From Shigella phage JK32, in the sequence record MK962753.1: DNA of 64,000 nucleotides; one strand, given 5' to 3'. A program made the translations under genes and the position numbers. Below, piece after piece: positions 58,080 through 59,827 of the stretch. Every line of letters begins with the position of its first letter. The stretch's first letter is position 1. Under the pieces are notes generated by a model, which saw nothing but the letters and a program-made list of their open reading frames with translations, did no database searches and was not told the DNA's origin.

Positions 58080-59827
58080 GCGTGATTGAAGGGATTAACG
58101 CAATGGCGACGGATGAACACCCGCTACATTTAGCACATCCGTCTACACTAGAAACTAAAATTGATTCAAATGGTATTGAATGGATTTTATCAAAGCATGA
58201 TGATAAATGGTATCCTAAAAAGTTTTCTGACTATCTGAAATTAAACAGACCGCAGAAAATAAGGATGCAAAGCACTGATCCAACAAATTATAAGTTCTTT
58301 AAAGATAGTGACAATATTCGCACGCGGTATATGCGATTAAAGAACTTGCGAAGGGCGAATATTAAAACTCAGTATACCCCTGAAATGATCGCAGAGTGGA
58401 AACGATGCCGTAAAGATATTGTGTATTTTGCCGAAACCTATTGCGCAATTACACACATCGACTACGGTACAATCAAAGTACAATTGCGTGATTATCAGAA
58501 AGATATGCTTAAGATCATGCATGAAAACCGCATGAGCGCACATAAACTCAGTCGTCAGCTAGGGAAAACTACCGCTGTAGCAATATTCCTTGCTCACTAC
58601 GTTTGTTTTAATAAAGACAAAGCGGTAGGTATACTGGCACACAAAGGGTCAATGGCTGTTGAAGTTCTAGAACGTACCAAACAAGCAATTGAACTATTAC
58701 CAGACTTCTTACAGCCTGGTATTGTTGAATGGAACAAGAAATCAATTGTTCTTGAAAACGGATCGAGTATTGGCGCTTATGCGTCGTCTCCCGATGCCGT
58801 GCGTGGTAACTCTTTTTCGTTTATCTACATTGACGAATGCGTTAGCGGCTTGACCAAAGTTACACTACGTGATAAACTAACAGGTGAGATTAAAGAATAC
58901 ACTATGTTAGAGGTTAAGATGATGGCTATTCAGCAAAAGTTGAATAAAATTAAAGAGTTATTACTGCCGCACGCAAAAAATCCAAACTTGACTCGCGGTT
59001 GGGTTCCTGGCGTAACTATGGATATGTTGGAAGAATACAAAGAGTTTTTCGACACACATTTTCATAAAACCGAATCCATGAGAGAGTTTATCGCATGTGT
59101 AACAAATGATATTCTGGATCGTCCCGTTTGCTCTACGAAAGGATGTGGTTGTCGTGTGGAATTAAGCAAGAATGGTCCATACTATAAGGATAAATGCCAT
59201 AACTACTGCACAGAAAAATTGCCTGGGCGCTTAGGGAAAATATCATCAAAAATGGTTATCTTCCGTCGTTTTGAGTGTCCAGAATGCGGGATGTATGCTG
59301 TTAAAAATGAGGGTTATCTTTGCCGTAAATGTGGTTACGCAAAACAAGGCGAGGCAATGAAACGTCTATACGTCGAAAACGGCGATGAAATGCGCAAAAA
59401 GTGCAACGGTAAGAAAACACCAGAACAAAGGGCTAAACAGTCCGAGCAAGTTAAACAGCGTATTCTGAATGGTGAATTTACTCCTAAGACGACTAACCGT
59501 CTTAATCACAATCGCATTAAGTATGATGGTCATAACTTTCGTAGCTCATGGGAACTATCTTTCTATAAAGATATGAAAGCTAAAGGCGTTAATATTGAAT
59601 ATGAAACGCTTCGTGTTACATACAAATTTAAAGGAAAGAATCACGTTTATATTACGGACTTCGTAGATCACGATAATAAGATCGTTTATGAAGTTAAGCC
59701 TAAGCGACTTGTTGAAGACCCAAAAACAATGGCGAAAGAACACGCCGCTATAGAATGGTGTAAAGAAAACGGATATACTTTCGAATATATTCACGAGGAT
59801 TATATTAATGAACTTTTGGAATCTTGA
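58076..59827 (+). CDS. 17: Terminase large subunit N-terminal ATPase fragment fused to intein block A, zinc ribbons and a gp4-like nuclease domain
   Basis: Residues 1-254 collinear with recalled T4 gp17 (Walker [18 protein letters not shown]); then [10 protein letters not shown] (Hint block A), CxxC pairs, RSSWEL...EVKP domain. Confidence 0.85.

What the first reader, a model, noticed from the sequence alone, without database searches (positions are those of the whole stretch)
59400..59827. Nuclease domain inside the terL intein resembles the phage's own head-completion protein gp4
Seen in sequence: the C-terminal domain of ORF 58076-59827 ([63 protein letters not shown]) shares the RSSWEL, D-F and EVKP motifs, in the same order, with gp4 at 37133-37609 (ITYRSSWELHIMKF...YHMDFWVKFVDGKEFLWEVKPAKE). 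Inference: the intein nuclease belongs to the same PD-(D/E)xK-like family as a virion assembly protein, suggesting domestication in one direction or the other.
Basis: seen in the sequence. Interest (0 to 1): 0.55.

Follow-up and report, generated by a model that had tools for sequence, protein, structure and literature searches.

The report
gp4-like homing nuclease in split terminase
The resemblance is real: a selfish DNA-cutting enzyme that has broken this phage's DNA-packaging gene in two uses the same nuclease module as the phage's head-completion protein gp4. However, gp4 was already known to be a nuclease, and the "intein" is really a split intein with the enzyme fused to its first half.

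Summary

1. There is no contiguous intein. terL is a fractured gene. ORF1 is TerL-N, a ~32-aa N-intein piece and a ~297-aa endonuclease. ORF2, in another frame with its own start, is a 106-aa C-intein piece (PDB "CatC" TerL split intein, E=1e-12) plus TerL-C.
2. gp4 is already an established PD-(D/E)xK nuclease, so no nuclease-to-structural-protein jump is needed.
3. The nuclease belongs to a large mobile family (685 clusters at E<=1e-30). Its members sit between split-intein halves in terL, UvsW-like helicase, clamp-loader and PhoH genes.
4. It forms a sister clade to gp4 (85% bootstrap), and this phage's own gp4 is among the most distant. Direction of descent is unresolved.

I found no paper describing this endonuclease family or its link to gp4. 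Moderate interest; a new variant of a known kind.

The parts
58076..58837 (+). TerL N-extein (ORF1 residues 1-254; ATPase Walker A SRQLGKTT, Walker B IYIDE).
   Evidence: Pfam Terminase_6N 1.4e-25. Identical in protein sequence to RB49 gp17 residues 1-254.
58838..58933 (+). N-intein piece, about 32 aa, starting at Cys255 ([32 protein letters not shown]). It carries only the first splicing block.
   Evidence: It begins exactly where RB49 gp17 continues IYIDE|CAF. The same piece ends with a stop codon after 41 aa in phage HY03. Its C-terminal limit is set by where free-standing relatives of the endonuclease start.
58934..59272 (+). N-terminal region of the endonuclease (ORF1 residues about 287-399). 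It is Cys-rich (C..GCGC....C...C) and is presumed to be a DNA-recognition module.
   Evidence: It aligns with the N-termini of free-standing terL-type family members L030, L035, L041, L045 and with Thanatos-2. No Pfam match was found.
59273..59437 (+). Zinc-ribbon-like CPECG...CRKCG and a helical linker (ORF1 residues 400-454).
   Evidence: Weak Pfam Zn_ribbon_3 match, residues 400-421, E=0.013-0.069. Conserved in HY03-type relatives. Relatives carry NUMOD3 in the equivalent region. The AlphaFold model shows helices here.
59438..59827 (+). gp4-like PD-(D/E)xK nuclease domain (ORF1 residues 455-583 plus stop). Catalytic candidates are E493, D528, E539 and K541.
59795..59810 (+). Shine-Dalgarno GAGGA (59795-59799) and the ATG start of ORF2 (59808-59810), inside the last 20 nt of ORF1.
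   Evidence: Sequence read directly. The Met start just before the [YFW]E[VI]LT strand is conserved in HY03, PspYZU05, TG1, Thanatos-2 and metagenomic relatives.
59808..60125 (+). C-intein piece, 106 aa ([13 protein letters not shown] ... SESH ... NNVESHN). It contains the remaining splicing blocks.
   Evidence: phmmer hit to PDB 6dsl_B 'consensus engineered intein CatC', E=1e-12, over residues 13-113 of the chain. It ends HN, followed by Cys, where RB49 gp17 resumes.
60126..61187 (+). TerL C-extein (ORF2 residues 107-459 plus stop), starting with Cys+1 (CAFIQNW).
   Evidence: Pfam Terminase_6N C-terminal half at 3.2e-12 and Terminase_6C at 1.3e-22. Collinear with RB49 gp17.
37133..37609 (-). 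gp4, head completion nuclease (158 aa). Catalytic candidates are E34, D73, E87 and K89.

Best explanation
The window comes from an RB49-like coliphage (Krischvirus). Its large terminase gene has been invaded by a 1288-nt mobile element, inserted between the Walker-B Glu (IYIDE) and the following Cys.

The element is a split intein of the atypical AceL/GOS/Cat-TerL type plus a homing endonuclease. ORF1 encodes TerL-N, then a ~32-aa N-intein piece, then, in the same reading frame, a ~297-aa endonuclease. That endonuclease consists of a Cys-rich region, a zinc ribbon and a C-terminal PD-(D/E)xK nuclease. ORF2 is translated separately from its own ribosome-binding site and encodes the 106-aa C-intein piece plus TerL-C.

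Inferred mechanism: the two intein pieces associate and trans-splice to give an intact 607-aa TerL. This releases the N-intein-endonuclease fusion. The endonuclease cuts intein-less terL alleles of co-infecting relatives near the insertion site, and recombinational repair copies the element in (homing).

The nuclease module is a specific homologue of the T4-type head completion nuclease gp4, over the full length of gp4. It belongs to a large sister family of mobile endonucleases and is not a copy of this phage's gp4.

Shown here: gene anatomy, insertion site, homology, fold, conservation of catalytic residues, patchy distribution, and an element more conserved than its flanks. Inferred: trans-splicing, site-specific cleavage, homing.
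For: Anatomy:
- The ORFs and their 20-nt overlap in different frames.
- RB49 gp17 is contiguous across IYIDE|CAF, and the insert is 1288 nt.

Split intein:
- The C-intein piece matches PDB 6dsl_B CatC at E=1e-12.
- The literature describes AceL-TerL and GOS-TerL as having N-intein pieces of 25-37 aa and a C-intein piece of 104 aa (PMC11766414).
- HY03 has the same element as three ORFs: TerL-N with N-intein, a 199-aa endonuclease, and C-intein with TerL-C.
- Thanatos-2 has the fused form.

The fusion is real:
- It is conserved in six coliphage genomes at 98-100% amino-acid identity and in Thanatos-2 at 39%.
- UvsW-type loci L031 and L034 show the same extein-intein-NUMOD3-nuclease fusion.

Mobility:
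- Only five records cover at least 80% of the query, plus one more carrier cut at a contig end, out of 59 records at 90% identity or more.
- The insert differs from phage kaaroe at 6 of 1288 nt, whereas the flanking exteins differ at 17/762 and 87/1059 nt.
- Nine synonymous changes lie within 75 nt upstream and 60 nt downstream of the insertion site, relative to RB49.
- Nearly all of the roughly 36 distinct IMG/VR family members (loci L007-L056) sit between split-intein halves of terL, a UvsW-like helicase or a clamp-loader gene. In Campylobacter phage CP21 a member lies within PhoH.

Nuclease and gp4 homology:
- E, D and ExK are invariant in both families.
- The AlphaFold models place them on the first helix, the end of the second strand and the third strand.
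- Foldseek finds a 'Head completion nuclease' at E=8.6e-7.
- A gp4 orthologue that sits next to gp2 (L058) lacks the gp4 insert and hits the endonuclease PHROG at 1.5e-18.
Against: - No activity was tested. Trans-splicing with a 297-aa protein hanging on the short N-intein piece is assumed, not shown.
- Pfam does not recognise a Hint domain in the joined intein pieces.
- NUMOD3 is not detected in the window protein itself, and the zinc-ribbon match is weak.
- By structure alone, many phage 'Endonuclease I'-type multidomain proteins rank above gp4.
- The cleavage site is unknown.
Confidence: 0.8

Rival explanations
1. The intein is contiguous and bifunctional, with a nested endonuclease. ORF1 and ORF2 would be joined by a programmed +1 frameshift or a sequencing error within the 20-nt overlap, giving one precursor that cis-splices.
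For: The two ORFs overlap, and there is a T-run (CTTTTGG) in the overlap. The RefSeq and GenBank annotations of carriers are inconsistent.
Against: - The same stop and restart is present in six independent genomes and in Thanatos-2.
- HY03-type phages have three separate ORFs.
- A conserved Met start with a GAGGA eight nt upstream precedes the C-intein piece.
- The solved and characterised Cat/AceL/GOS-TerL inteins are naturally split at this same position.
- The endonuclease would sit after the first splicing block, which is not the usual nesting site.
Confidence: 0.05
2. The similarity to gp4 is only generic PD-(D/E)xK superfamily resemblance, or convergence on catalytic motifs, with no specific evolutionary link.
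For: - The pairwise E-value is only 0.001.
- Both proteins also match TnsA_N, and the endonuclease matches Phage_endo_I.
- The Foldseek ranking puts many Endonuclease I-like proteins ahead of gp4.
Against: - hhalign gives E=1e-20 to 1e-22 over 110-115 columns, including non-catalytic N- and C-terminal segments.
- 32 of 38 endonuclease domains hit gp4 phrog_218, against 12 of 38 for the endo-I-like phrog_945.
- 34 of 40 gp4 proteins hit endonuclease phrog_15427, against 3 of 40 for phrog_945.
- T7 endonuclease I scores only E=0.61 and TnsA is not detected by sequence against PDB.
- Bridging sequences exist.
Confidence: 0.08
3. The C-terminal domain is not a selfish homing enzyme. It is an accessory packaging or head-completion nuclease, delivered with TerL to help DNA processing as a second gp4.
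For: It is physically fused to TerL-N, is produced with late packaging proteins, and is homologous to a nuclease needed for head completion.
Against: - It is absent from most close relatives, which package normally.
- The same family interrupts UvsW-like helicase, clamp-loader and PhoH genes.
- The window already has a standard gp4.
- The element is more conserved than its flanks.
- It carries DNA-binding modules typical of homing endonucleases.
Confidence: 0.05

Closest known systems
T4 gp4 head completion nuclease (PHROG 218; within Pfam PF08722)
   Same: Homologous over essentially the whole of gp4. It shares the TnsA-like fold, the same E/D/ExK residues, the shared G-x-F/Y-x-P-x-N, RSSWE and C-terminal WC..G..F.ITE segments, and a phage-encoded origin.
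   Different: - gp4 is a ~150-aa single-domain core gene next to gp2. It has a ~22-aa insert after EVKP and, as cited, non-specific DNase activity.
- The ORF1 domain is the C-terminal module of a ~300-aa mobile protein with DNA-binding regions, and it forms a separate clade (85% bootstrap).
Fractured genes with split inteins and a free-standing homing endonuclease (Dassa et al. 2009, PMC2677866)
   Same: Same arrangement: N-extein with N-intein, then endonuclease, then C-intein with C-extein, all on one strand in phage genes for DNA enzymes. That paper included one gp17 terminase locus.
   Different: - The endonucleases described there are GIY-YIG or Vsr-like (EDxHD) and are separated from the N-intein piece by 27-51 nt.
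- Here the nuclease is the canonical E-D-ExK TnsA/gp4 type.
- In this phage it is fused in frame to the N-intein piece.
AceL-TerL / GOS-TerL / Cat-TerL atypical split inteins (PDB 6DSL)
   Same: The host gene is TerL. The N-intein piece is very short and the C-intein piece is ~104-106 aa. The C-intein piece matches CatC at E=1e-12. The splicing residues are Cys1, HN and Cys+1.
   Different: - The N-intein piece here is not a short free tail but continues into a 297-aa endonuclease.
- The host is a cultured E. coli phage rather than a metagenomic sequence.
Tn7 TnsA N-terminal catalytic domain and T7 endonuclease I
   Different: Only 17-18% identity. There is no significant sequence match to PDB chains (T7 endonuclease I E=0.61). 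The biology differs: transposon 5'-end cleavage and junction resolution, respectively.
I-Bth0305I / Hef (Vsr-like EDxHD homing endonucleases)
   Same: Also phage homing endonucleases with a restriction-endonuclease-like fold and NUMOD-type DNA-binding regions. They are also found in fractured genes.

Membership tests
PD-(D/E)xK nuclease, TnsA-N-like (Pfam PF08722) | Profile match above Pfam's gathering score. | tested here: met
   The ORF1 domain scores 38.3 bits (34.5 in the full-length protein) and gp4 scores 71.2 bits, against a cut-off of 26.5. 30 of 38 family members match.
PD-(D/E)xK nuclease, TnsA-N-like (Pfam PF08722) | Catalytic E ... D ... E-x-K on a helix-strand-strand-strand core. 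| tested here: met
   ORF1 E493/D528/E539/K541 and gp4 E34/D73/E87/K89 are invariant or nearly invariant in alignments A3 and A4. They lie on the first helix, the end of the second strand and the third strand of the models.
PD-(D/E)xK nuclease, TnsA-N-like (Pfam PF08722) | Restriction-endonuclease-like fold resembling TnsA. | tested here: met
PD-(D/E)xK nuclease, TnsA-N-like (Pfam PF08722) | Metal-dependent DNA cleavage. | not testable with these tools
   Requires biochemistry.
gp4 head completion nuclease (orthologous group) | A ~150-aa single-domain protein encoded next to gp2 (DNA end protector) and gp53. | tested here: not met
   This is met for 37133-37609. It is not met for the ORF1 domain, which is the C-terminus of a 583-aa protein within terL.
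gp4 head completion nuclease (orthologous group) | Groups within the gp4 clade or profile. | tested here: not met
   ORF1 scores 156 bits on the endonuclease HMM and 30.5 bits on the gp4 HMM. The two clades split in 51 of 60 bootstraps. It is homologous to gp4 but paralogous.
Homing endonuclease (functional class) | Encoded within or next to a self-splicing element at a conserved site of an essential gene. | tested here: met
   It lies between the split-intein pieces at the Walker-B DE|C site of terL. The same holds for relatives.
Homing endonuclease (functional class) | Patchy presence among close relatives, with the element more conserved than its flanks. | tested here: met
   Five to six carriers among 59 records at 90% identity or more. 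The insert differs from kaaroe at 6 of 1288 nt, against 17/762 and 87/1059 nt in the flanks.
Homing endonuclease (functional class) | Separate DNA-recognition modules plus a nuclease domain. | tested here: inconclusive
   The window protein has a Cys-rich region and only a weak zinc-ribbon match. NUMOD3 is detected only in relatives.
Homing endonuclease (functional class) | Site-specific cleavage of the element-free allele and super-Mendelian inheritance. | not testable with these tools
   Needs cleavage assays and mixed infections.
Atypical TerL split intein (AceL/GOS/Cat-TerL type) | Sequence homology of the C-intein piece to characterised members. | tested here: met
   PDB 6dsl_B CatC, E=1e-12, aligned over 101 residues.
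Atypical TerL split intein (AceL/GOS/Cat-TerL type) | Two separate polypeptides, split after the first splicing block: an N-intein piece of 25-37 aa and a C-intein piece of about 104 aa. | tested here: met
   There are separate ORFs in different frames. The N-intein homology region is about 32 aa and the C-intein piece is 106 aa. Unlike the characterised inteins, the N-intein piece continues into the endonuclease.
Atypical TerL split intein (AceL/GOS/Cat-TerL type) | Splicing residues: Cys/Ser1, [TS]xxH, terminal HN, Cys+1. | tested here: met
   Cys255, SESH (ORF2)...SHN106 and Cys107.
Atypical TerL split intein (AceL/GOS/Cat-TerL type) | Protein trans-splicing activity. | not testable with these tools
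   Pfam Hint models do not detect the joined pieces. No third structure-prediction job was available.
   There is a stop codon at 59825-59827, and ORF2 is in another frame.
Vsr-like / EDxHD homing endonucleases (I-Bth0305I, Hef) | Sequence similarity and the EDxHD active-site motif. | tested here: not met

The most novel reading that the evidence does not exclude
The NUMOD3/zinc-ribbon plus gp4-like PD-(D/E)xK proteins would be an unrecognised, abundant homing endonuclease family (at least about 700 clusters at 50% identity). The family would specialise in split inteins inserted just after the Walker-B DE of phage P-loop ATPases (TerL, UvsW-like helicase, clamp loader, PhoH). It would share a specific common origin with the essential head completion nuclease gp4. 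One of the two would then have arisen from the other: either a core morphogenesis nuclease was captured by selfish elements, or a selfish nuclease was domesticated for head completion. The in-frame N-intein-endonuclease fusion seen here would be a natural intermediate between fractured genes and classical endonuclease-containing inteins.
Probability: 0.35. Interest if true: 0.65.

Novelty: new variant of a known kind. Interest (0 to 1): 0.5.

Why it matters
1. It corrects annotation. Carriers list ORF1 as 'hypothetical protein', or list two 'terminase large subunits'. In Campylobacter phage CP21, RefSeq labels a fragment of this endonuclease 'head closure'.

2. It places an atypical TerL split intein, a type valued in protein engineering, in cultured E. 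coli phages. There, trans-splicing of an essential protein and homing can be tested genetically.

3. It points to a third endonuclease type in fractured genes, beside GIY-YIG and Vsr-like. This type is widespread in metagenomes, and I found no description of it in the searchable literature.

4. The close link between a mobile nuclease and the core gp4 nuclease makes the exchange of catalytic modules between selfish elements and phage morphogenesis a testable question.

5. The in-frame fusion to the N-intein piece fits the 'missing link' idea of how endonucleases become integrated into inteins.

Tried and rejected
- A single-sequence search of the 5.8-billion-protein index gave only 3 hits, and the first IMG/VR scan gave 2 loci. 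Alignment-based queries were needed.
- PDB sequence searches with both family profiles found nothing significant. The I-CreI hits (E 0.004-0.9) are a chance match of DFVDxxNKIIYEIKP to the LAGLIDADG segment, and the 'Affimer' hit for gp4 is likewise spurious.
- Pfam does not detect Hint or intein models in the C-intein piece or in the joined intein pieces. NCBIfam has no useful model.
- No T4-type late promoter (TATAAATA) lies inside the insert, so there is no evidence for separate transcription of the endonuclease.
- I considered a tandem gp4 duplication in Campylobacter phage CP21 ('head closure' next to 'endonuclease'). I rejected it: these are two fragments of one endonuclease inside a fractured PhoH gene.
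- I considered membership in the Vsr-like/EDxHD (Hef) family and rejected it.
- The first neighbour-joining/bootstrap script timed out and was rerun with a faster distance calculation.
- The papers on GOS-TerL (PMC4661395) and Cat-TerL (PMC7232844) are not held. The Thiel 2014 AceL-TerL paper and Benler 2020 could be cited only through other papers.
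Full report
**What is there**

The window is 97% identical to Escherichia phage kaaroe, a Krischvirus of the RB49 group.

The feature lies in the large terminase gene. ORF1 (58076-59827, 583 aa) starts as TerL: it matches Terminase_6N at 1.4e-25 and is identical in protein sequence to RB49 gp17 residues 1-254. After the Walker-B motif IYIDE it departs from gp17 at Cys255 (codon 58838-58840).

ORF2 (59808-61187, 459 aa) overlaps ORF1 by 20 nt in a different frame. It starts at an ATG eight nt downstream of a GAGGA. After 106 residues ending ...VESHN it resumes gp17 with CAFIQNW. RB49, Phi1 and most other relatives read IYIDE|CAFIQNW without interruption. The insert is 1288 nt.

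**Not a contiguous intein**

The 106-aa head of ORF2 matches PDB 6dsl_B, 'consensus engineered intein CatC', at E=1e-12 over about 100 residues. That protein is the C-terminal half of the consensus of the AceL-TerL and GOS-TerL atypical split inteins. Those inteins have N-terminal halves of only 25-37 aa and C-terminal halves of about 104 aa (PMC11766414).

The first ~32 residues after Cys255 ([12 protein letters not shown]...) correspond to that short N-terminal half. In the Tequatrovirus HY03 the same piece ends with a stop codon after 41 aa. It is followed there by a separate 199-aa 'endonuclease' ORF and then by the C-intein/TerL-C ORF.

So terL here is a fractured gene in the sense of Dassa et al. 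2009 (PMC2677866). The difference is that in this phage the endonuclease is fused in frame to the N-intein piece. An alignment with free-standing relatives shows that a complete endonuclease begins at about residue 287.

The fusion is not an assembly error. It is present in six coliphage genomes at 98-100% amino-acid identity and in Shewanella phage Thanatos-2 at 39% identity. Metagenomic UvsW-type loci L031 and L034 show the same extein-Hint-NUMOD3-nuclease single ORF.

**The observation**

Pairwise evidence is modest:
- BLASTP gives E=0.001, 31% identity over 85 aa.
- The Smith-Waterman z-score is 5.4, and 3 of 2000 shuffles reach the observed score.

Family-level evidence is strong:
- Both proteins exceed the gathering score of Pfam PF08722, the TnsA-like N-terminal endonuclease family.
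- ORF1 hits the gp4 PHROG 218 at 2.4e-9. gp4 hits the endonuclease PHROGs 22215 and 15427.
- An HMM built from six endonuclease domains scores the listed gp4 proteins at about 40-51 bits.
- hhalign of the two family alignments gives 99.3-99.5% probability and E=3.2e-20 to 9.4e-23, over 110-115 columns that span gp4 residues 6/7 to 145/150.

The homology therefore covers the whole of gp4, including non-catalytic N- and C-terminal segments. gp4 carries an extra ~22-aa insertion after EVKP.

The candidate catalytic residues are invariant or nearly so in both families:
- ORF1: E493, D528, E539, K541.
- gp4: E34, D73, E87, K89.

**Structure**

The AlphaFold model of ORF1 residues 401-583 has a mean pLDDT of 86.9, with the nuclease core above 90. 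The gp4 model has a mean pLDDT of 92.5. In both, the motif residues sit on the first helix, the end of the second strand and the third strand.

Vsr and I-Bth0305I follow at lower Z.

Foldseek against viral models finds the endonuclease's own family first. Many multidomain phage 'Endonuclease I' or NUMOD3 proteins come next, and a 'Head completion nuclease' appears at E=8.6e-7. I could not superpose the two models directly.

**How specific is the link to gp4?**

Several results point to a specific link:
- Against PHROGs, 32 of 38 endonuclease domains hit gp4 family 218, but only 12 hit the endo-I-like family 945.
- Conversely, 34 of 40 gp4 proteins hit endonuclease family 15427, but only 3 hit family 945.
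- Against PDB sequences, the endonuclease profile reaches T7 endonuclease I only at E=0.61 and does not detect TnsA.
- Intermediate sequences exist. In locus L058, a gp4 orthologue encoded next to the gp2 DNA end protector lacks the gp4 insertion and hits the endonuclease PHROG at 1.5e-18.

Other results limit the claim:
- A neighbour-joining tree separates endonucleases from gp4-like proteins in 51 of 60 bootstraps.
- The window's own gp4 is among the gp4 proteins most distant from the endonucleases.

So the two are sister families. This is not a recent copy within this genome, and the direction of any recruitment is unresolved.

**What the endonuclease family is**

A scan of IMG/VR with the family alignment gave 80 loci. 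In L007-L056 the relative is a 270-400-aa ORF. It nearly always lies between two halves of a gene that carry split-intein pieces. The host genes are:
- terL, with the atypical short N-intein piece;
- a UvsW-like helicase, with a canonical split;
- a clamp-loader-like gene;
- PhoH, in Campylobacter phage CP21.

An exhaustive profile search of 1.84 billion cluster representatives finds 685 at E<=1e-30 and 1241 at E<=1e-10. In the 150 best hits listed the nuclease domain is C-terminal. Relatives carry NUMOD3 motifs. The window protein has a Cys-rich region and a weak zinc-ribbon match.

**Evidence for mobility**

- Only five to six of 59 close records carry the insert.
- The insert differs from kaaroe at 6 of 1288 nt, while the flanking exteins differ at 17/762 and 87/1059 nt.
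- Nine synonymous differences from RB49 lie within 75 nt upstream and 60 nt downstream of the insertion site.

**Comparison with what is known**

gp4 was predicted to be a PD-(D/E)xK nuclease of the TnsA / T7 endonuclease I type in 2005 (PMC1189080). Its DNase activity and its requirement for morphogenesis were reported in 2020 (Benler et al., cited in PMC7824862). UniRef names it 'Head completion nuclease'.

Fractured genes, including one gp17 locus, were described in 2009 with GIY-YIG or Vsr-like endonucleases. Hef-type enzymes were later placed in the Vsr-like EDxHD family (PMC3239194). The present family has the canonical E-D-ExK site and no sequence match to I-Bth0305I, so it is a different family.

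Searches of the held literature found no paper that describes this family or its link to gp4. This is absence of evidence within one library only.

**Verdict**

The most likely mechanism has three steps:
- TerL is restored by trans-splicing.
- The N-intein-endonuclease fusion is released.
- The element spreads by homing into intein-less terL alleles.

The anatomy, homology, fold and population pattern are shown here. Splicing, cleavage and homing are inferred.

Noticed in passing
L087 877-3693 (Escherichia phage FL15, PP400778): A sister Krischvirus carries a different, contiguous intein of about 330 aa in terL, at the Walker A P-loop (SRQLGK|ALDVNTPIPT...IPTHN|TTAVAIF). It has LAGLIDADG-type motifs. 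The whole gene is annotated 'replicative DNA helicase DnaB'. terL in this genus is therefore hit by at least two unrelated inteins.
   Followed up: partly
L088 1900-3022 (Campylobacter phage CP21, NC_019507): A member of the same endonuclease family is broken into CP21_060 ('endonuclease') and CP21_059. The latter is annotated 'head closure', i.e. gp4. The two fragments lie between fragments of a fractured PhoH gene. Automatic annotation already confuses this nuclease domain with gp4.
   Followed up: partly
window 58838-60125 versus flanks 58076-58837 and 60126-61184: Compared with phage kaaroe, the mobile insert differs at 6 of 1288 nt. The TerL-N extein differs at 17/762 nt and the TerL-C extein at 87/1059 nt (16 amino-acid changes). 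The element is younger than the gene it sits in.
   Followed up: yes
window 60526-61225: Identity to RB49 drops from 97-100% to 85-92% about 400 nt downstream of the insertion. This looks like a mosaic or recombination boundary inside the TerL nuclease domain, not obviously tied to the intein.
   Followed up: no
L058 3336-3809 (IMG/VR 3300033146_003837): A gp4 orthologue sits next to a gp2-type DNA end protector and a major head protein gene. It lacks the ~22-aa gp4 insertion and matches the endonuclease PHROG 15427 at 1.5e-18. It is a bridging form between the two families. A LAGLIDADG-type homing endonuclease gene lies immediately downstream on the other strand.
   Followed up: partly
loci L007-L056; L088: All split-intein insertion points served by this endonuclease family lie next to a nucleotide-binding motif of a P-loop ATPase and precede a Cys: TerL ..DE|C, UvsW-like helicase ..|CH, clamp loader ..|CD. 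A PhoH gene is also hit. This suggests the family, or its inteins, repeatedly targets Walker-B coding DNA.
   Followed up: partly
window 36294-37121 (-), 37133-37609 (-), 37665-40030 (+): The gene order is gp2 (DNA end protector, with an extra N-terminal HTH segment, phrog_32288), gp4, then gp53 and gp5 on the opposite strand, as in T4. A TATAAATA late-promoter-like site at 37625-37632 sits in the divergent intergenic region.
   Followed up: partly
PMC3322345 (Campylobacter phage IBB_35): [quoted passage not shown] Given the loci seen here, this may be the same fractured-gene arrangement, misread. I did not examine that genome.
   Followed up: no
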